DNA of 64,000 nt from a virus (Duplodnaviria > Heunggongvirae > Uroviricota > Caudoviricetes), in IMG/VR virus record IMGVR_UViG_3300044712_000851, positions 32,885-96,884 of that record. One strand, given 5' to 3'. Below the pieces are notes generated by a model. That model searched no databases. It had not been told where the DNA came from and was given only the letters and a program-made list of their open reading frames with translations. Positions within the stretch are counted from its first letter, which is position 1, and each line of letters begins with the position of its first letter. Below, in pieces: positions 33,250 to 45,106 of this stretch. Position numbers and translations under genes: made by a program.

Positions 33250-33345
33250 CCCACGTGTGGAAGGCCCAGGAGTCGAACCTGGAATGAGCTTTCGCTCACT
33301 GATTCTACAGATCAGCGTATTTGCCGTTTGCTTGTATGTTAAATC
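33250..33345 (-). ncRNA. tRNA-Tyr mimic lacking a 5' acceptor strand and D-arm (Y RNA-like candidate)
   Basis: T-arm CCAGG-TTCGACT-CCTGG, long variable hairpin GAGC-GAAA-GCTC, anticodon arm CTGAT-CTGTAGA-ATCAG (GTA) like tRNA-Tyr at 43265; no complementary 5' acceptor found; preceded by the TACAAGCA motif. Confidence 0.4.
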
Positions 33346-33370
33346 CTGCGAGACACTTTAAACTTTATAG

Positions 33371-33414
33371 TTCTGCCTCTAAGTGGTGTATAAATTATCA
33401 CCCTAAGGGGCAGA
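33371..33414 (-). other. extended hairpin CTGCCTCTAAG-TGGTG-TATAAATTA-TCACC-CTTAGGGGCAG
   Basis: 11-bp outer stem plus 4-bp inner stem, between the tRNA mimic and the HNH gene. Confidence 0.4.
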
Positions 33415-33619
33415 AGCATTTAGTCAACGTTTTTATTTCGTTAGCTAATCAGATTCCAGAATACTGTCTAAGTGCAGTTACTATAATTGTCTCCCCCCAG
33501 TGCCCCATCGCCAAGAACACATTGAGAGTCTATATGCCACGGGGTATTGGAGGGGGACAAAGCAAAAGCTTAGCTTGTAAGTAATCTAGATGCGAGACAG
33601 CGGTCTAAAATCTGATTAA

Positions 33620-34201
33620 TTAACGAGATCTTTGTTTCTCCGTTCGTAATGTTTTAAGGTACGGCAATTGAGCCACTAAATCTATATTAAGTTGTTTCTC
33701 TTCATTTGTCAAGTGGGTACTATGGAATTGATAAAACTTAGATTTTAGCCACACTTCATAAGGCATATTACCTCTAGCCTTGTTACACGGTCTACACGCG
33801 GAGACTAGGTTTACTCTAATTGAAATTCCTCCATCTTCCCATAAATCTATGTGGTCTACTGTGAGTGGAACGGAGTCTCTTCCACAATAACGACATTTAA
33901 AGCCATCTCTACGGTAAGTAGCCCATGCTTCATTTTGATCTATTTGTCTTTGACTCTTTCTGATGATTGCTTTTGTTGGTCCAGCAATAACTTCTAATAT
34001 GTCCGTTTGTCTTAGAACTCTCTCCCAGTCTTCGGGAGACAATTCGAGTCGAACAAACTCTCTATTTAATACTTCAGGGGCAAATTCATCGGGGAGAATA
34101 CAGAGGTAGTTTTTATCTTGGTTGGAATAAACGGCAGCAGAAATCTGCAAGGAGTTGCCAAAATCTAGTATGTTTAAATCACTTAATTTAATTGTATCCA
34201 T
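33620..34201 (-). CDS. HNH endonuclease
   Basis: CRYCG...LTVDHI...NLVSACRPCNKARGN. Confidence 0.65.
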   Translation of the reverse strand: MDTIKLSDLNILDFGNSLQISAAVYSNQDKNYLCILPDEFAPEVLNREFVRLELSPEDWERVLRQTDILEVIAGPTKAIIRKSQRQIDQNEAWATYRRDGFKCRYCGRDSVPLTVDHIDLWEDGGISIRVNLVSACRPCNKARGNMPYEVWLKSKFYQFHSTHLTNEEKQLNIDLVAQLPYLKTLRTEKQRSR

Positions 34202-34244
34202 TGAGCACTAAAATCCTCTGTCTAAGTGGTAATCGCTAAACTGA

Positions 34245-34318
34245 TTGCTTAACGGGATTTGAACCCGTAACTTTTTCTTCCAAAGAGAAACGCTCTACCA
34301 TTGAGCTATATGCTTGTA
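34245..34318 (-). tRNA. tRNA-Gln(TTG)-like with non-pairing 5' acceptor (degenerate or interrupted copy)
   Basis: D-arm GCTC-AATGGTA-GAGC, anticodon loop CTTTGGA, T-arm ACGGG-TTCAAAT-CCCGT; the 5' side reads CGCTTACAAGCATA (motif copy). Confidence 0.35.
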
Positions 34319-34563
34319 AGCGAATACCTGCGAAACAAAGGGTTTTAATGTTCAAATTGTTCTCTAACAACTGCGGATGAGGATAAGCATTTCCTAGGAT
34401 GAACCTTATCAACAAGTATCGCAATAGCTTAAATGAGTATTGTTGCCATTTTTTACTTGTACCTACCTTGTCCAGAAACCGTTTCTCTGGCGGAGGCAGT
34501 GCCTTAATCCCTTGCGTAGGATCACGTTCGGCCACGCATGTGTTAGAGAACAAAACTATCTAG

Positions 34564-34685
34564 CGGGGATGCAGGGAGTCGAACCCTGTATTTTTAGATT
34601 ACAATTCTAATGCTTGTATGTAACTTCAGGCGAGACAGTAAATGTCTAAGTAAAAATTACGTTTAACCGTTTAGCTACATCCCCT
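34564..34685 (-). tRNA. tRNA-Thr(TGT) with an intervening sequence of about 45 nt between the D-arm region and the anticodon stem
   Basis: 3' body 34564–34610 (anticodon arm TTAGA-ATTGTAA-TCTAA, T-arm, acceptor CATCCCC); matching 5' GGGGATG-TA at 34685 right after the Phe CCA; insert ends ...TGTCTCGCCTGAAGTTACATACAAGCA. Confidence 0.45.
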
Positions 34686-34686
34686 T

Positions 34687-34887
34687 GGAGCCCCTGCGAG
34701 GAATCGAACCTCGACCTACAGTTATTCAGACTGTTGCTCTACCATTGAGCTATTTTTGCTTGTAGAAAAATGAATGCGATGTGTCTTTGAAATTAACTTA
34801 TGGCGCACCTCTGCGCGGAGATGCTATTGAACTTCAAATTTAACACATAAGTTATTATTTTCCCTTGCTGTATTTTATTACAGGGGC
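34687..34887 (-). tRNA. tRNA-Phe(GAA) with an intervening sequence of about 122 nt between positions 7 and 8
   Basis: Body 34687–34758 (TA-GCTC-AATGGTA-GAGC, anticodon loop CTGAATA, T-arm, CAGGGGC-T-CCA); complementary GCCCCTG at 34881–34887; insert ends ...TTCTACAAGCAAAAA. Confidence 0.4.
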
Positions 34888-34890
34888 TTA

Positions 34891-35029
34891 TGTTGCGGAG
34901 CTAGGAGTCGAACCTAGAGTTCTACCTTTGATTGGTAGATGCTTGTAGGCAAATGCCTGCGGGATAATAAATTATCCAAGTGGTGATTGCTTTATAACAA
35001 TAGCGTGTTAACCATTACACCACTCCGCA
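34891..35029 (-). tRNA. tRNA with anticodon loop AAUCAAA (possible UCA anticodon), intervening sequence of about 65 nt between positions 26 and 27
   Basis: 5' exon 35004–35029 (TGCGGAG-TG-GTGT-AATGGTTA-ACAC-G), 3' exon 34891–34939 with acceptor CTCCGCA; insert ends ...CCCGCAGGCATTTGCCTACAAGCA. Confidence 0.4.
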
Positions 35030-35042
35030 ATATTTTAAAGAA

Positions 35043-43235: not shown

Positions 43236-43264
43236 TTATATGTTATTTGCATTGTGCCGACTGA

Positions 43265-43348
43265 AGGACTTGCACCTCCGTAGCCCTTTCGGACATCAGT
43301 TCTACAGACTGACGCAATTGCTACTCTGCCAAATCGGCATGTGGGTGG
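43265..43348 (-). tRNA. tRNA-Tyr(GTA), class II
   Basis: Acceptor GCCGATT/AGTCGGC, anticodon arm TCAGT-CTGTAGA-ACTGA, 15-nt variable arm. Confidence 0.65.
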
Positions 43349-43353
43349 CTAGA

Positions 43354-43425
43354 GAGAATTGAACTCTCGCGAATAGGTTCACAGCCTATTGATCTACCAC
43401 TGATCTATAACCACCATATTTTGCT
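43354..43425 (-). tRNA. tRNA-His(GTG) with G-1
   Basis: Extra 5' G, D-arm GATC-AGTGGTA-GATC, anticodon arm ATAGG-CTGTGAA-CCTAT. Confidence 0.6.
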
Positions 43426-43590
43426 GGAGTTCCCCCTGTACCAGCTTGTGTTCTTAGACCTTAAACTTTGAACAGGATGTTAAGGCACCTACCCAGGTGT
43501 AGAACCCATCCCCAGAGAAATTTTATACGGCATTATCTCCCAACCAATCAGTAAACTATGTTCAGGGAGCTCAAATCTGCTCCGTAAGGG

Positions 43591-43675
43591 ACTGTCCTCT
43601 TGGTGATGTCACACGGATTCGAACCGTGGTGAGTAGACTGAGAATCTACTAGCCTAAGCCTCTAGCTGATGACAC
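43591..43675 (-). tRNA. tRNA-Glu(CTC)
   Basis: Anticodon arm GTAGA-TTCTCAG-TCTAC, T-arm CACGG-TTCGAAT-CCGTG, CCA encoded. Confidence 0.55.
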
Positions 43676-43988
43676 CGAATAAACTTTGCTGTCTGACTTC
43701 TTTGGTTTTGACTTTCTTTTTACTATCAGGATTAAATGTATAATCTATCAAGTAATAAGTATCTCCCGCTTTAATTTCATTGTTTGAAAACTTGGCTACT
43801 AGGGTACTGTTTTTATTATGCACACCCTTTAGTCTCAAGTCTTCAGGAGACAAAGTCATAGTCTCCCCAGAGTGAACTACCTTAATTCCCTTGTTTTCTG
43901 AGAGTGCTCTCTTGACAAAGAAATCTCTAAGGCTAACTCTTGATCCAAATCTAAGTTCTTTTTTATGCTCGAACTTTAAACACTTCAT
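43662..43988 (-). CDS. hypothetical protein
   Basis: 108-aa ORF; C-terminus overlaps a tRNA. Confidence 0.4.
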   Translation of the reverse strand: MKCLKFEHKKELRFGSRVSLRDFFVKRALSENKGIKVVHSGETMTLSPEDLRLKGVHNKNSTLVAKFSNNEIKAGDTYYLIDYTFNPDSKKKVKTKEVRQQSLFGVIS

Positions 43989-43994
43989 ACTAAG

Positions 43995-44065
43995 TCAGGG
44001 AACTGAGAATTGGACTCAGTCTAGACGGCCCCAAACCGCCCGTGCTACCGTAACACTTTACCCTG
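43995..44065 (-). tRNA. tRNA-Pro(TGG)
   Basis: Anticodon arm GGCGG-TTTGGGG-CCGTC, T-arm CTGAG-TCCAATT-CTCAG. Confidence 0.55.
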
Positions 44066-44070
44066 TTATG

Positions 44071-44151
44071 CACCAGTGCTAGGATTCGAACCTAGAGTTT
44101 CGGGTTTGGAGTCCGATGGTTTACCGTTAACCGACACTGATAGATGCGCGT
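44071..44151 (-). tRNA. tRNA-Trp(CCA)
   Basis: D-arm GGTT-AACGGTA-AACC, anticodon loop CTCCAAA, T-arm CTAGG-TTCGAAT-CCTAG. Confidence 0.55.
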
Positions 44152-44156
44152 CTACG

Positions 44157-44218
44157 GGGAATCGAACCCCGCCCTACCGCTAGACAGGCGGTCATCTTAG
44201 CCAATTGACTCTAGACGC
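44157..44218 (-). tRNA. tRNA-Asp(GTC)
   Basis: Acceptor GCGTCTA 7/7, anticodon arm ACCGC-CTGTCTA-GCGGT, T-arm CGGGG-TTCGATT-CCCCG. Confidence 0.6.
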
Positions 44219-45106
44219 ATTAAGCCATCATAGAACACGTAATTAGACTTTGTCAAGTAGGGTTATTACAATTCCTCTGGAGAAACGAGGTTGTGTCTCT
44301 TTTTAGCCATCGCCCAAAAGCAGTGGTTGTGGTAGAATTTACCCGTAAATTTGGCATGGTAGTGTTCCTTAATGTATCTATCAGTCTCCGTTTCTGGGGT
44401 ATTTTCTATCACCATCATTTTGTGACACCACTGGCAGAAAGCAATCATTTTTTTGGTTCTTCAAAGTCTTTTAATACGTGGATTGCTAATAATATACCAG
44501 CAATAGTTCCGACAATAGACAAAACTATTTGGAAGATTTCAAAAGGTGTTGGACCTGGTTCATAAGAATAAGCATTCATTTCAATACTGCCACAAAAGAA
44601 ATCGCCAAAATCATTATGGCTACAAACAATATAACATAATTAAATATTTTTTTCATATTCTAATCTCTGGGAAAGTATGGGTAATAGACCACAGTTTTTA
44701 CGTTCCATTCTGTCTTTTCTTTGCAGATGATCTAAGTAACCCTGTCCGTCGACAGTTAGCATTATCATCACTCCTTACCTTTCGGTTAGAGACAACCAAC
44801 ATTTTATACAGAATTATGTTGGACAAAACGGGCTCAACGGCTGTAACGGGATGCAATCCTAAGCCTCCCCATACCTCCCCAAAAATTAGAATGTCAATGT
44901 TCTGCTGGAGGAAGGCTTTACGTGGTCTATCTTCCTGGGCTAGAAAGGAGGTGATAGCCTCACATCGCCACACCCGCGGGTAATCGCTCCCCCAGCACAA
45001 CGTTGAAAATCAAAATCGAACGAGTTGGGGGAATTATTACTTCAGACCCTCGAAAGAATCCGCTCTGCCTTATTGGTTATTCAGCAAGTTCCTCCAACTC
45101 ATAAGA

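What the first reader, a model, noticed from the sequence alone, without database searches (positions are those of the whole stretch)
33250..44235. Roughly 40-gene tRNA array interleaved with an RRM protein, two HNH endonucleases, two methyltransferase-like genes and unresolved tRNA-like fragments
About 11 kb on the minus strand is almost entirely tRNA genes. By hand folding I can assign Gly ×2, Asn ×2, Thr ×4, Leu ×3–4, Val, Ile ×2, Ser ×2, Cys, Arg ×4, Lys ×2, Phe ×2, Gln ×3, Met/CAT ×2, Glu ×2, Tyr, His, Pro, Trp and Asp. Protein genes sit between them: HNH at 33620 and 38668, RRM at 35687, SAM-methyltransferase-like at 39834 and 40992. Many T-loops read TCCGAAT or TCCGATT (C at position 55), and several acceptor stems carry a U·U at positions 6–67. 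The array is large enough to re-tune host decoding. The methyltransferases could be tRNA or rRNA modification enzymes.
Basis: seen in the sequence. Interest (0 to 1): 0.6.

Follow-up and report, generated by a model that had tools for sequence, protein, structure and literature searches.

The report
Phage tRNA island with RNase P and Y RNAs
An uncultured phage carries a complete set of 37 tRNA genes, and the same block also holds a ribosome-rescue RNA, a miniature RNase P ribozyme gene and a battery of tRNA-like "Y RNAs" next to a hidden Ro60 protein, so the phage appears to bring its own kit for making and policing tRNAs.

Summary
The tRNA array is real. ARAGORN and Rfam together give 37 canonical tRNA genes (35463-44218, all on the minus strand). 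They cover all 20 amino acids, and by standard wobble rules (my inference) all sense codons.

- **tmRNA** at 36750-37067 (107 bits).
- **Reduced RNase P RNA**, 281 nt, at 39242-39522. CR-I and CR-V are intact and P4 carries a compensatory change. Pattern scans found 27 IMG/VR viral contigs with similar mini RNase P cores, 23 of them beside same-strand tRNAs.
- **The "unresolved tRNA-like fragments"** (33207-35028) are not broken tRNAs. They are seven to eight units of one RNA family: a bulged helix (5'-CNNN / ACUU-3'), an invariant UACAAGC, then a tRNA-like or other cargo. Some units have open ends. Others are the same hairpin, circularly permuted, inserted into a tRNA-like body.

The tRNA array itself is a known kind. 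The RNase P and Ro60/Y-RNA parts are new variants.

The parts
44227..44256 (-). Sigma-70-like promoter (TTGACA-18-TATGAT, 11/12) just upstream of the first tRNA (Asp, 44218)
   Evidence: It is the best match in the region, but the total number of promoter-like sites is not above the shuffle expectation, so this rests on position only.
35463..44218 (-). Array of 37 canonical tRNA genes in one orientation. Order: Asp, Trp, Pro, Glu-CUC, His, Tyr, Glu-UUC, Met x2, Gln x2, Asn, Phe, Lys x2, Gly-GCC, Arg x4, Cys, Ile-GAU, Ser-GCU, Ser-UGA, Leu-UAG, Ile-UAU, Val-UAC, Leu-AAG, Val-AAC, Leu-UAA, Leu-CAA, Ala, Thr x3, Asn, Gly-UCC. Many are spaced only 2-6 nt apart.
   Evidence: ARAGORN, Rfam RF00005 at 29-67 bits, acceptor and T-arm check.
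38046..38116 (-). tRNA-Val(UAC), missed by ARAGORN; T-loop TCCGATT
   Evidence: Rfam 50 bits. Sequence; the anticodon loop UUUACAU was read by eye.
36750..37067 (-). tmRNA (ssrA), flanked 2-4 nt away by tRNA-Ala and tRNA-Thr. It has a G3.U70 acceptor and an encoded CCA. The tag reading frame is ambiguous.
   Evidence: RF00023 106.8 bits, E 1e-40; ARAGORN; sequence.
39242..39522 (-). Reduced bacterial type-A RNase P RNA (281 nt). CR-I is GAGGAAAGUCC and CR-V is ACAGAAUCUGGCUUA. J11/12 (ACAGAAA), J12/13 (UGAAA) and a P9 GNRA loop are present. P13/P14 and P18 are absent and P3 is vestigial. Its 3' end abuts the 5' end of tRNA-Ser(GCU).
   Evidence: RF00010 full-length alignment, 51.6 bits, E 5e-15, below the gathering score of 100. 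P4 is compensatory (CCAGA/UCUGG) and covaries across viral homologs.
40992..41702 (-). Class-I SAM methyltransferase (Methyltransf_24)
   Evidence: PF13578, E 2e-9.
39834..40376 (-). 180-aa class-I SAM methyltransferase fold, closest to the tRNA wobble-U34 methyltransferases TrmR and MnmM
   Evidence: No Pfam or NCBIfam hit. AF2 pLDDT 93. Foldseek hits 3ntv, 5zw3/5zw4 (TrmR) and 8h27 (MnmM), E 8e-8 to 1e-5.
38668..39150 (-). HNH_3 homing-type endonuclease; its last 35 nt overlap tRNA-Ser(UGA)
   Evidence: PF13392, E 1e-6; phrog_1872, E 3e-30.
35687..35926 (-). 79-aa single-RRM RNA-binding protein. It was not found in the fetched flanks of the related loci.
   Evidence: PF00076, E 6e-22; NF058537, 98 bits; tblastn.
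35421..35449 (-). Promoter-like site (TTGACA-17-TAGTAT) ahead of the acidic ORF and the Y-RNA-like battery. Similar cTTGACAAa sites sit at the same place in L002 and L003.
   Evidence: sequences (read by eye).
35043..35414 (-). Small acidic protein (123 aa) of unknown function, conserved just upstream of the Y-like RNAs and the Ro60-like gene in 12 of the 18 related loci searched
   Evidence: tblastn; no family hit.
34894..35028 (-). M1, a 'closed' unit: a tRNA-like body (acceptor, D and T arms) with the bulged hairpin s2'-CACUU-s1'-loop-s1-CGCA-s2-UACAAGC inserted in it
   Evidence: Rfam tRNA hit of 42.5 bits carrying a long insertion. RNAalifold on four orthologs: 19 of 30 pairs with compensatory changes.
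34686..34888 (-). M2, a closed unit: tRNA-Phe(GAA)-like, with the hairpin (extended s1) inserted between the acceptor 5' strand and the D arm
   Evidence: Rfam tRNA hit covering model positions 8-63; RNAfold; motif scan.
34564..34684 (-). M3, a closed unit: tRNA-Thr(UGU)-like, with the hairpin inserted between the D arm and the anticodon arm
   Evidence: Rfam tRNA 55.8 bits over 121 nt; RNAfold. The L002 ortholog has compensatory stem changes.
34357..34555 (-). X: a roughly 200-nt RNA candidate with a long terminal stem and the canonical Rsr-binding motif GNCGAAN0-1G (GGCCGAACG at 34525-34533). The motif is also present in L002 and L003; a matching terminal stem was seen in L002.
   Evidence: motif definition from PMC4201824.
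34215..34341 (-). M5, an 'open' unit: s1(CCUUUGUUU)-CGCA-s2-UACAAGC-[D, anticodon (UUG) and T arms]-s2'-ACUU-s1'(AGACAGAGG)
   Evidence: The cargo scores 57.4 bits as a tRNA over model positions 3-68.
33620..34201 (-). HNH endonuclease (193 aa) lying between units M5 and M6. A homolog lies within about 5.5 kb of the Ro60-like gene in 8 related loci: immediately upstream in 5 (L002-L005, L007) and a few kb downstream in 3 (L009, L014, L018).
   Evidence: PF01844, E 1e-9; synteny.
33462..33602 (-). M6, an open unit with a non-tRNA cargo (a CUCCCC...GGGGGGAG helix). Orthologous units are present in L002, L003 and L004.
33371..33415 (-). M7: a possible degenerate minimal unit (s1 10 bp, ACUU present, no UACAAGC)
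   Evidence: Read by eye and from the fold. Weak.
33207..33358 (-). M8, an open unit immediately upstream of the Ro60-like gene. The cargo has an anticodon-like arm (GUA), a GNRA-capped variable arm, a T arm and a closed acceptor-like hairpin.
   Evidence: The L002 ortholog pairs 8/8 in s1 and 10/10 in s2 using different sequences.
31584..33188 (-). Cryptic Ro60 ortholog (534 aa): an alpha-helical TROVE-like ring plus a vWA domain whose MIDAS residues D345, S347 and S349 are invariant

Best explanation
This is the RNA-gene island of an uncultured tailed phage (its contig is about 97 kb). It has two joined modules on the minus strand.

**Module 1 (44256 to 35463)** is a polycistronic tRNA operon. 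It holds 37 tRNAs for all 20 amino acids, matched to the phage's AT-rich codons, with a tmRNA and a 281-nt minimised type-A RNase P RNA embedded in it. Interspersed are an RRM protein, two SAM methyltransferases (one shaped like a wobble-U34 tRNA methyltransferase) and an HNH endonuclease.

Inferred mechanism for module 1:
- The tightly packed precursors are cut at tRNA 5' ends by RNase P.
- The phage supplies the catalytic RNA, probably to pair with the host RnpA protein.
- The RNase P RNA frees its own 3' end by cutting the abutting tRNA-Ser.
- The phage tRNAs then sustain late translation, and the tmRNA rescues stalled ribosomes.

**Module 2 (35449 to 31584)** is an operon in this order: small acidic protein, seven to eight Y-RNA-like ncRNAs, an HNH gene, and a Ro60 ortholog recognisable only by fold. 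Each RNA carries the same bulged helix (helix 1, then 5'-CNNN opposite ACUU-3', then helix 2), followed by an invariant UACAAGC and a variable cargo. The cargo is usually a tRNA mimic.

Inferred mechanism for module 2:
- The bulged helix is the docking site for the Ro60-like ring, by analogy with GGUCCGA/CACUUGAC in animal Y RNAs and CGAA in bacterial ones.
- The tRNA-like cargo recruits or decoys tRNA-handling factors.
- The resulting RNP would survey, protect or degrade tRNA-like RNAs during infection.

Shown here: the gene content, the folds, the RNA family and its covariation, and the synteny. Inferred: expression, RNase P activity, Ro60 binding and the biological role.
For: - **tRNAs and tmRNA:**
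- **Codon fit:**
- **Phage context:** internal virion and structural proteins, primase-helicase and exonuclease PHROG hits. Sixteen relatives lie in IMG/VR.
- **RNase P RNA, this window:** full-length RF00010 alignment, E 5e-15, with CR-I, II, III and V. P4 covaries across viral copies.
- **RNase P RNA, other viral contigs:** pattern scans found 27 IMG/VR contigs with a reduced core. In 23 there are same-strand tRNAs within 500 nt, usually inside arrays of 14-38 tRNAs. Of the 27, 25 (26 of 28 counting the window) have a fully complementary three-pair P4 extension, in 9 distinct combinations. Of the seven checked with Rfam, six matched RF00010: three above its gathering score of 100 (100.8-171 bits) and three below it (52-64 bits).
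- **RNase P abutting a tRNA:** seen in the window and in L021, L023 and L024.
- **Ro60 fold:**
- **Y-like family, pairing:** 19 of 40 YACAAGC sites have an ACUU partner with at least 14 of 16 pairs, against 1.3% of random anchors. Cognate strands pair 15.5/16 and non-cognate 10.4 +/- 1.65.
- **Y-like family, placement:** 36 of 37 detected units lie on the Ro60 gene's strand, within 4.5 kb upstream or just downstream of it. None lie in 38 kb of control loci.
- **Y-like family, covariation:** The count of structure pairs gives 86% paired against 57% shuffled, 18 of 18 pairs with double changes, and a covariation score of 0.79 against 0.27 (0 of 500 shuffles). Thirty G.U pairs mark the RNA strand.
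- **Closed units:** conserved in four phages with 19 compensatory pairs.
- **Precedent:** phage Ro60 genes with Y RNAs encoded just upstream (PMC4201824; PMC12135203).
Against: - No expression or binding data exist for anything here.
- The RNase P hit is below Rfam's gathering score. The RNA lacks P13/P14/P18 and an obvious L15 GGU. No RnpA-like RNR motif occurs in the window. The two nearest relatives with DNA in hand (L002, L003) show no RNase P within the fetched flanks.
- The M-type units do not carry the published bacterial motif GNCGAAN0-1G, and Rfam's YrlA model does not hit them. A separate RNA (X) does carry that motif and could be the true Ro60 ligand.
- The acidic protein (12 of 18 loci) or the HNH protein could be the real partner of the bulged helix.
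- The units used for the covariation count were chosen by pairing score, so that number is partly circular. The random-anchor and non-cognate controls address this.
- The Ro60 assignment rests on a predicted structure (TM about 0.5, 13-15% identity).
Confidence: 0.72

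Rival explanations
1. The elements at 33207-35028 are decayed or disrupted tRNA pseudogenes. On this view, tRNA genes were broken by insertion of a small mobile palindromic DNA element, perhaps spread by the neighbouring HNH endonuclease, and the pieces have no RNA-level function.
For: - The closed units look like tRNA genes with a 48- to 120-nt insert at odd positions (after position 7, at about position 26).
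- An HNH gene sits among them.
- Their anticodon loops are not conserved between orthologs.
- Canonical Thr-UGU, Phe-GAA and Gln-UUG genes already exist in the array.
Against: - Open units have the two motif halves separated by the cargo. They pair only as RNA over 50-140 nt, using different sequences in each unit.
- G.U pairs (30 of 448) fit only one strand.
- All units are co-oriented with the Ro60-like gene, and the arrangement persists in phages whose Ro60-like proteins are only 43-66% identical to the window's.
- Acceptor, D, T and hairpin stems all show compensatory changes in four orthologs. Pseudogenes would not keep these.
Confidence: 0.06
2. The inserts in the closed units are introns. 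A phage or host activity removes them to yield extra functional tRNAs (Thr-UGU, Phe-GAA and others).
For: - Once the insert is ignored, Rfam aligns M1 and M3 over the full tRNA model 1-71; M2 aligns only over positions 8-63.
- Non-canonical intron positions are known in archaeal tRNAs (from my own knowledge).
Against: - The inserts are too small for group I or group II introns, and Rfam finds no intron family at E <= 1.
- No bulge-helix-bulge motif is evident, and the host is bacterial (tmRNA and type-A RNase P RNA are present).
- The same motif occurs in the open topology, where splicing would be meaningless.
- After notional excision the D arms are poor, and the anticodon loops vary or are aberrant (M1 has AAUCAAA without U33).
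Confidence: 0.05
3. The bulged helix with UACAAGC is the binding site of a different conserved partner, either the small acidic protein or the HNH protein. The Ro60-like protein would then bind the X RNA (canonical CGAA motif), or misfolded RNAs only.
For: - The acidic ORF is adjacent in 12 of 18 loci and the HNH lies near in 8.
- The X RNA carries GGCCGAACG, which matches GNCGAAN0-1G.
- The 5' strand of the M-type loop is variable (CGCA, CAUC, CUUA, CCAC).
Against: - L014 has four units next to the Ro60-like gene with no detectable acidic ORF in the fetched flank.
- L010, L011, L013 and L016 have units but no HNH.
- X is found only in the window, L002 and L003, whereas M-type units follow the Ro60-like gene much more widely.
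- The invariant ACUU(G/A)RAC resembles the 3' strand (C)ACUUGAC of animal Y RNAs, and a C follows helix 1 like the bulged C9 (from my own knowledge of hY1/hY3; not tested).
Confidence: 0.15
4. The RNase P-like sequence is a non-functional relic captured from a host, or it acts as an RNase P decoy or regulator rather than a ribozyme.
For: - Its score is below Rfam's gathering threshold, and several peripheral helices are missing.
- It is absent from the fetched flanks of L002 and L003.
Against: - All universally conserved core segments are kept, and P4 is maintained by compensatory changes across 28 viral copies in 9 combinations.
- The placement is recurrent: same strand, inside tRNA arrays, in 23 of 27 viral contigs.
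- The window, L020, L021 and L023 share long identical blocks. That argues for a maintained phage lineage of RNase P RNAs rather than one-off captures.
Confidence: 0.15
5. The contig is not a phage but a fragment of a very small cellular or plasmid-like genome, which would make the tRNAs, tmRNA and RNase P RNA ordinary housekeeping genes.
For: A complete tRNA set with a tmRNA and an RNase P RNA is a cellular hallmark. Al-Shayeb et al. note that some large putative plasmids carry similar translation gene sets.
Against: - There are virion, internal-virion, tail-appendage, primase-helicase, exonuclease and HNH PHROG hits.
- There is no rRNA or other housekeeping RNA in 64 kb.
- Relatives are catalogued as viral contigs of 20-250 kb.
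Confidence: 0.04

Closest known systems
Large phage tRNA islands. Documented here: huge phages with up to 67 tRNAs plus tmRNA and SmpB (Al-Shayeb et al. 2020, PMC7162821). From my own knowledge: T4, KVP40, mycobacteriophage Bxz1.
   Same: A single-orientation cluster of tightly spaced tRNA genes in a phage, with tRNAs distinct from typical host ones, an accompanying tmRNA, and homing-type endonuclease genes among the tRNAs (T4 SegB is listed in the reference list of PMC6582537).
   Different: This is a full 20-amino-acid set in a phage whose contig is only about 97 kb. One quarter of the tRNAs lack U55. There are two A34 tRNAs. An RNase P RNA gene is embedded in the array, which I found described in none of the papers searched.
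Bacterial type-A RNase P RNA (Rfam RF00010), especially minimal forms such as those of Mycoplasma (from my own knowledge)
   Same: CR-I, CR-II, CR-III and CR-V sequences, the P4 pseudoknot with its bulged U, a GNRA-capped P9, and the overall helix order.
   Different: It is only 281 nt, with no P13/P14 or P18, a vestigial P3 and an unusual P15-17 region. It scores 51.6 bits against a gathering score of 100. It is encoded by a virus, inside a tRNA operon, and abuts a tRNA.
Ro60 (Rsr)-Y RNA modules of bacteria and phages: YrlA/YrlB of Salmonella, Yrn1 of Deinococcus, mycobacteriophage YrlA (Chen et al. 2014, PMC4201824), and Thermus phage phiLo Ro60 with Yrl1/Yrl2 (PMC12135203)
   Same: The ncRNAs are encoded immediately upstream of, and co-oriented with, a Ro60-fold gene. 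A 5'/3' terminal helix carries a conserved asymmetric loop. The effector domain mimics tRNA (D and T arms). Each genome has several paralogous RNAs.
   Different: - The protein is undetectable as TROVE by sequence.
- The loop motif is CNNN/ACUU plus UACAAGC instead of GNCGAAN0-1G.
- The tRNA-like cargo keeps the native D-anticodon-T order, with helix 2 in place of the acceptor stem. YrlA instead has T, a closed acceptor, then D.
- Circularly permuted versions exist, embedded in tRNA-like bodies with open acceptor stems.
- There are up to seven or eight units per phage.
- The Rfam YrlA model does not detect them.
TrmR (YrrM, mo5U34) and MnmM (mnm5s2U34) tRNA wobble methyltransferases
   Same: The fold of the 180-aa protein (Foldseek E 8e-8 to 1e-5, TM 0.57-0.66) and the invariant motif-I residues E24, G26 and G28.
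   Different: It is shorter, with 13-15% identity and no Pfam or NCBIfam match. Catechol and caffeoyl-CoA O-methyltransferases match about equally well. The substrate is unknown.

Membership tests
Phage tRNA gene array | Many co-oriented tRNA genes that pass covariance or structure-based detectors | tested here: met
   36 by ARAGORN. 36 canonical tRNAs reach Rfam's gathering score: 35 of the 36 ARAGORN calls plus Val-UAC at 38046-38116.
Phage tRNA gene array | Located in a phage genome | tested here: met
   PHROG virion, replication and HNH hits; IMG/VR relatives. No terminase or capsid gene was identified in the window.
tmRNA (RF00023) | Covariance score above gathering; tRNA-like domain with G3.U70 and a 3' CCA | tested here: met
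   106.8 bits against a gathering score of 47. GGGCACA...UGUGUCCACCA.
tmRNA (RF00023) | Identifiable resume codon and degradation tag | tested here: inconclusive
   ARAGORN's tag EISKSLLKCQPLEKLLSV is atypical. An alternative frame ends ...FYFFSVS.
Bacterial RNase P RNA type A (RF00010) | Rfam gathering score (100 bits) | tested here: not met
   51.6 bits, E 5e-15, full-length alignment over model positions 1-367.
Bacterial RNase P RNA type A (RF00010) | Universally conserved regions CR-I and CR-V forming P4, plus CR-II and CR-III | tested here: met
   GAGGAAAGUCC, ACAGAAUCUGGCUUA, ACAGAAA and UGAAA are present. P4 is compensatory in 26 of 28 viral copies.
Bacterial RNase P RNA type A (RF00010) | Catalytic cleavage of pre-tRNA 5' leaders; RnpA partner | not testable with these tools
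   No RnpA RNR motif in the 64-kb window. The rest of the contig was not examined.
Ro60 / TROVE | Sequence match to the TROVE domain (Pfam) or to solved Ro60 proteins | tested here: not met
   No Pfam, NCBIfam or PHROG hit. phmmer and a 30-sequence profile against PDB sequences give nothing.
Ro60 / TROVE | HEAT-like helical ring followed by a vWA domain with a MIDAS motif | tested here: met
Ro60 / TROVE | Binds Y RNA or misfolded RNA | not testable with these tools
   Only genomic adjacency to structured ncRNAs is shown.
YrlA-type bacterial Y RNA (RF02553) | Match to the Rfam YrlA covariance model | tested here: not met
   No YrlA hit in 33200-35030 at E <= 1. The only hit (28 bits) lies over two ordinary tRNAs.
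YrlA-type bacterial Y RNA (RF02553) | [quoted passage not shown] | tested here: not met
   M-type units have C-NNN (CGCA, CAUC, CUUA and others) opposite an invariant ACUU. Only the separate X RNA (34357-34555) has GGCCGAACG.
YrlA-type bacterial Y RNA (RF02553) | Encoded next to, and co-oriented with, a Ro60 gene; contains tRNA-like D and T arms | tested here: met
   36 of 37 units are co-oriented with and near the Ro60-like gene. The M5, M1, M2 and M3 cargoes score 42-57 bits on the tRNA model.
Group I / group II / archaeal BHB tRNA introns (considered for the closed units) | Intron covariance-model hit, or a bulge-helix-bulge motif at the exon junctions | tested here: not met
   Rfam finds no intron family at E <= 1. 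The inserts are 48-120 nt. The same motif exists in a non-intron topology.
TrmR/MnmM tRNA U34 methyltransferases | Class-I SAM methyltransferase fold of the O-methyltransferase-like subfamily | tested here: met
   (model pLDDT 93).
TrmR/MnmM tRNA U34 methyltransferases | tRNA anticodon-loop substrate | not tested
   Small-molecule O-methyltransferases match similarly well.

The most novel reading that the evidence does not exclude
Uncultured phages carry a self-contained tRNA biogenesis and surveillance kit that has gone unnoticed for two reasons. First, its Ro60 has diverged beyond sequence recognition. Second, its RNAs fall below or outside Rfam models. The kit has two parts:

- A lineage of virus-encoded miniature RNase P ribozymes embedded in tRNA operons. 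They would mature their own 3' end on the abutting tRNA.
- A new Y-RNA family whose Ro60-docking helix is used modularly. It can clasp the ends of a tRNA mimic, or it can be grafted in circularly permuted form into a tRNA-like body that keeps an open acceptor stem.

On this reading, Ro60 would be tethered to molecules that host tRNA enzymes or anticodon nucleases treat as tRNAs. They could act as decoys, or as sensors for repair or degradation.
Probability: 0.35. Interest if true: 0.8.

Novelty: new variant of a known kind. Interest (0 to 1): 0.64.

Why it matters
Phage tRNA arrays are well known, so the array alone is ordinary. Two embedded features would matter if they hold.

**A virus-encoded RNase P RNA.** I found none described in the literature I could search. 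It would add a catalytic RNA to the viral translation toolkit. It would also supply a set of naturally minimised RNase P RNAs (CR-I-to-CR-V cores of about 195-275 nt, full lengths up to about 310 nt) for defining the minimal ribozyme. And it would raise the question of why a phage replaces the host's RNA subunit, for example if the host enzyme is shut off or the phage pre-tRNAs are unusual (25% lack U55).

**The Ro60/Y-RNA module.** It shows that Ro60 is more widespread in phages than domain annotation suggests: more than 200 homologs, none carrying a Pfam domain. It also offers a natural series of modular and permuted Y RNAs. These make the long-standing question of what Y-RNA effector domains do directly testable, in a setting where tRNA supply and tRNA-targeting host defences are plausibly at stake.

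Tried and rejected
- **Megablast against GenBank phages.** 16 kb of the region gave no match.
- **blastn of RNase P RNAs against GenBank phages.** Neither the window's RNA nor L020's gave a match.
- **Sequence searches for the 534-aa protein.** Pfam, PHROGs, NCBIfam, and phmmer or a profile against PDB sequences all gave nothing. Only fold comparison identified it. tblastn against GenBank phages gave one 25%-identity hit in a 595-kb uncultured phage.
- **First reading of the repeated motif as a small intron bracketing the HNH ORF.** I rejected this once the stems were seen to pair from CGCA forward to ACUU across the cargo. The HNH lies between two units, not inside one.
- **Rfam YrlA, GOLLD and intron models** do not hit the units.
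- **RNase P in the nearest relatives.** None found within the fetched flanks of L002 or L003 by Rfam, nor in any of L002-L019 by a regex for the conserved core.
- **RnpA.** A regex for its RNR motif over six frames found nothing inside an ORF.
- **The two methyltransferases** are not detectably similar to each other by BLASTP.
- **Source names** for NCBI-held homologs of the Ro60-like protein: none available.
- **tmRNA tag.** It could not be assigned with confidence.
- **A parsing error.** My first script for T-loops in other loci read anticodon loops by mistake. I redid it from coordinates.
- **Promoter and terminator scan.** The counts are not above the shuffle expectation, so only the positions of the two best promoter-like sites are noted.
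- **Literature.** I found no paper describing phage-encoded RNase P RNA. The library excludes most subscription journals, so prior description cannot be ruled out.

Full report
**1. The observation**

ARAGORN reports 36 tRNA genes and one tmRNA, all on the minus strand, between 35463 and 44218. Rfam's tRNA model confirms 35 of the 36. The exception is Pro-UGG at 43994-44065, which ARAGORN alone calls. Met-CAU at 42609-42677 is borderline at 29.1 bits. Rfam adds one gene that ARAGORN missed, at 38046-38116 (50 bits). Its anticodon loop UUUACAU makes it tRNA-Val(UAC).

That gives 37 canonical tRNAs with 35 distinct anticodons. They cover all 20 amino acids and, by standard wobble rules (my inference), every sense codon.

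It lacks Ala-UGC and the second Val. Its surplus Thr, Phe and Gln are the tRNA-like chimeras described in section 3.

The protein calls hold:
- HNH (PF01844) at 33620-34201.
- HNH_3 at 38668-39150.
- RRM_1 at 35687-35926.
- Methyltransf_24 at 40992-41702.
- The ORF at 39834-40376 has no family match. With 21 homologs its AlphaFold model reaches pLDDT 93. Its best structural neighbours are TrmR (B. subtilis mo5U34 tRNA methyltransferase, including the tRNA-bound form) and MnmM.

The T-loop remark is correct. Nine of the 37 tRNAs read TCC (C55) and one reads TGC. U.U at 6-67 occurs in three.

One statement is overstated. tRNA genes make up 2,782 nt, 25% of the stated span, so the region is not 'almost entirely' tRNA. 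There are also no canonical tRNAs below 35463.

**2. What else is in the array**

*tmRNA.* Rfam finds a tmRNA at 36750-37067 (106.8 bits, E 1e-40). It has a G3.U70 acceptor and an encoded CCA. It is wedged 2-4 nt from tRNA-Ala and tRNA-Thr. Its tag frame is ambiguous.

*RNase P RNA.* With the relaxed threshold, Rfam also aligns 39242-39522 end to end with bacterial type-A RNase P RNA. The score is 51.6 bits (E 5e-15), below the gathering score of 100. The alignment keeps the following:
- CR-I (GAGGAAAGUCC).
- The J11/12 ACAGAAA and J12/13 UGAAA modules.
- A GNRA-capped P9.
- J5/15 GCAA.
- CR-V (ACAGAAUCUGGCUUA).

It lacks P13/P14 and P18, and P3 is vestigial. The P4 pseudoknot is kept by a compensatory change (CCAGA/UCUGG in place of CCGGN/NCCGG).

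*Other viral copies.* To see whether this is a one-off, I scanned IMG/VR for CR-I and CR-V at reduced spacing.
- 27 viral contigs matched, from 6 to 527 kb.
- In 23 of them, same-strand tRNAs lie within 500 nt, usually inside arrays of 14-38 tRNAs.
- Of the 27, 25 (26 of 28 counting the window) have a fully complementary three-pair P4 extension, in nine different sequence combinations.
- Rfam scored six of the first seven: three above its gathering score of 100 (100.8-171 bits) and three below it (52-64 bits). Two of them have a tmRNA close by.
- In the window and in L021, L023 and L024, the RNase P RNA's 3' end abuts the 5' end of a tRNA. RNase P cleavage of that tRNA would therefore release the ribozyme's own 3' end. 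That last step is inference.

*Limits.* The nearest relatives in hand (L002, L003) show no RNase P in the fetched flanks. GenBank phages give no blastn match. I found no RnpA-like motif in the window. I also found no paper on phage-encoded RNase P RNA in the searchable library, though that library is incomplete.

**3. The 'tRNA-like fragments' (33207-35028)**

*The motif.* Reading the minus strand shows a repeated pair of motifs: CACUUAGACA, and CUCGCAG followed about 12 nt later by UACAAGCA. Six of the window's 13 TACAAGC copies and four of its five exact CACTTAGA copies fall within this 1.8 kb.

I first took these for the ends of a small intron. Comparison with the related locus L002 showed the opposite polarity. 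Each unit runs, 5' to 3':
- helix 1, 5' strand
- C-NNN
- helix 2, 5' strand
- UACAAGC
- cargo
- helix 2, 3' strand
- ACUU
- helix 1, 3' strand

*The units in the window.*
- Open units: M5 (34215-34341, cargo a Gln-like cloverleaf without an acceptor stem), M6 (33462-33602, non-tRNA cargo) and M8 (33207-33358, cargo with anticodon-like, variable, T and closed acceptor-like arms).
- Closed units: M1 (34894-35028), M2 (34686-34888) and M3 (34564-34684). In these the same bulged helix is circularly permuted into a capped hairpin and inserted into a tRNA-like body that keeps its own acceptor stem. This is why Rfam reports 'tRNAs' of 121 and 137 nt.
- M7 (33371-33415) may be a degenerate copy.
- The HNH ORF lies between M5 and M6, not inside a unit.

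Minimum-free-energy folds of each unit reproduce these helices without constraints.

*Statistics.*
- Pairing: across the window and 16 related loci, 19 of 40 YACAAGC sites upstream of the neighbouring gene have an ACUU partner giving at least 14 of 16 pairs. Only 1.3% of random anchors do. Cognate strands pair 15.5/16 and non-cognate strands 10.4 +/- 1.65. Helix sequences are only about 40% identical between units.
- Placement: a both-strand scan of all sequence in hand finds 37 units. Of these, 36 are co-oriented with that gene and lie within 4.5 kb upstream or just downstream of it. None lie in 38 kb of unrelated phage tRNA loci.
- Covariation: on a 25-unit alignment, 86% of cells pair against 57% in shuffles. 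All 18 pairs show double changes. The covariation score is 0.79 against 0.27 (0 of 500 shuffles) and at most 0.26 for slid registers. Because units were picked by pairing, this number is partly circular. The random-anchor and non-cognate controls are the independent checks.
- Strand: thirty G.U pairs fit only this strand.
- Closed units: the M1 type is conserved in four phages, with 19 of 30 pairs compensatory across acceptor, D, hairpin and T stems.

**4. The neighbouring gene**

ORF 31584-33188 (534 aa) has no Pfam, PHROG, NCBIfam or PDB-sequence match, even as a 30-sequence profile. It does have more than 200 metagenomic homologs, none carrying a Pfam domain.

The C-terminal vWA domain has an invariant D-x-S-x-S MIDAS motif.

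*Synteny.* An HNH homolog lies immediately upstream of the Ro60-like gene in five loci with DNA in hand (L002-L005, L007) and a few kb downstream in three (L009, L014, L018). In L002 the gap between the HNH and the Ro60-like gene holds Y-like units, as in the window. In L003 it holds a small ORF and a tRNA-Gly instead, and the Y-like units lie upstream of the HNH. A 123-aa acidic ORF (35043-35414) precedes the RNA battery in 12 of 18 related loci.

*Precedent.* Ro60 genes with Y RNAs encoded just upstream, many of them mimicking tRNA, are established in bacteria and phages (Chen et al. 2014, PMC4201824; phiLo, PMC12135203).

*Where these units differ from that precedent.*
- They do not carry the published GNCGAAN0-1G motif, and Rfam's YrlA model misses them.
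- Their invariant ACUU(G/A)RAC and the C after helix 1 resemble the animal CACUUGAC/GGUC-C-GA helix. This comparison is from my own recollection of hY1/hY3 and was not tested.
- A separate candidate of about 200 nt (X, 34357-34555) does carry GGCCGAACG after a long terminal stem. The motif is shared only with L002 and L003, and a matching terminal stem was seen in L002.

**5. Context**

PHROG hits support a phage: internal virion and structural proteins, a tail appendage, primase-helicase, an exonuclease and HNH enzymes. So do 16 IMG/VR relatives. The window's own contig is 96.8 kb.

The best promoter-like site in the region (11/12) sits at 44256-44227, just before the first tRNA. Another sits at 35449-35421, before the acidic ORF. 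These are positional hints only.

Codon usage of 28 long ORFs is AT3-rich. It fits the presence of Ile-UAU, Arg-UCU, Val-AAC and Leu-AAG.

**6. Interpretation**

The finding is a real phage tRNA island, and that part is a known kind.

The island is also a tRNA biogenesis and surveillance locus. It holds a tmRNA, a minimised RNase P RNA that belongs to a recurrent and apparently undescribed class of viral RNase P RNAs, tRNA-modification-like methyltransferases, and a multi-copy Y-RNA-like family coupled to a cryptic Ro60.

I consider it most likely that the bulged helix docks the Ro60-like ring and that the tRNA-like cargoes engage tRNA-handling factors. About 0.6 of my 0.72 overall confidence rests on this step. 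Partnership with the acidic protein or the HNH protein, or X being the true ligand, remains open.

Activity of the RNase P RNA, expression of any of these RNAs, and the biological purpose are all inferred. Candidate purposes are a decoy for anticodon nucleases, quality control of phage tRNAs, or recruitment of an exonuclease such as the conserved RNase T-like enzyme at 22600-23187.

Noticed in passing
window 35463-44218 (e.g. 35463-35537, 35965-36037, 38619-38702, 39632-39706, 41708-41779, 42137-42212, 42217-42288, 43254-43338, 43994-44065): Ten of the 37 tRNAs lack the near-universal U55 (nine have C55; Tyr has G55). The rate is 6 of 58 in related phages and 3 of 93 in unrelated phage tRNA arrays. 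Such tRNAs cannot receive pseudouridine 55. The significance is unknown.
   Followed up: partly
window 37782-37854 (Val-AAC), 37858-37939 (Leu-AAG); L002 237-309 (Val-AAC): Two tRNAs have A34 anticodons, which is unusual for bacteria outside Arg-ACG. They match the phage's most-used codons in those boxes (GTT 50%, CTT 26%). This raises the question of whether A34 is deaminated or read unmodified.
   Followed up: partly
window 39242 (junction); L021 1350; L023 1605; L024 705: The 3' end of the RNase P RNA coincides with the first base of a tRNA in four viral loci. This suggests that the ribozyme is released from the precursor by its own activity.
   Followed up: partly
L020-L046 (IMG/VR contigs): 27 viral contigs carry reduced RNase P RNA cores (CR-I to CR-V spans of 195-275 nt), mostly inside large tRNA arrays. 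Only the first seven were checked with Rfam.
   Followed up: partly
window 35043-35414: A small acidic protein (123 aa, no family) is conserved directly upstream of the Y-like RNAs in 12 of 18 related loci. It is a possible RNP partner or nucleic-acid mimic.
   Followed up: partly
window 34357-34555; L002 ~5400-5600; L003 ~8100-8170: A candidate ncRNA carries the canonical Rsr-binding motif (GGCCGAA[A/C]G), and the window and L002 copies share a long covarying terminal stem. It is distinct from the UACAAGC units and is present only in the closest relatives.
   Followed up: partly
window 33462-33602; L002 6631-6740; L003 8870-9018; L004 5200-5337: One unit type carries a conserved non-tRNA cargo with a C-rich/G-rich helix (CUCCCC...GGGGGGAG). 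Its function is unknown.
   Followed up: no
window 30336-31364 and 3859-4518: A vWA-like protein (phrog_26613) lies just downstream of the Ro60-like gene in the window and in L003, and about 3 kb downstream in L002. A paralog (phrog_7371) lies elsewhere in the window.
   Followed up: no
window 26830-27504, 29306-29986; L001 13902-14138: A ThiF (E1-like) gene, a weak Prok-JAB hit and a Ub-Mut7C-type small protein sit downstream of the Ro60-like gene. This looks like a ubiquitin-like conjugation module, and ThiF recurs in most related loci.
   Followed up: no
window 22600-23187, 23705-24415: There is an RNase T / Rv2179c-like 3'-5' exoribonuclease, also found in L002 and L005, and a PNP_UDP_1 nucleoside phosphorylase. 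The exonuclease is a candidate effector for a Ro60 RNP.
   Followed up: no
window 36043-36534 and 38668-38702: Mechanical ORFs overlap tRNA genes. The 163-aa ORF's TTG start lies inside tRNA-Thr, and the contig's own gene call is 138 aa. The HNH_3 ORF's last 35 nt overlap tRNA-Ser.
   Followed up: no
GenBank LR756511.1 285981-287144: The only GenBank phage record with a detectable relative of the Ro60-like protein (25% identity) is an unannotated 595-kb uncultured phage.
   Followed up: no
window 45107-45877, 45954-46769: An SPFH/Band-7 protein and a secreted Pro/Thr-rich protein lie directly upstream of the array. Band_7 also lies near the Ro60-like gene in L003 and in the P0012 contig.
   Followed up: no
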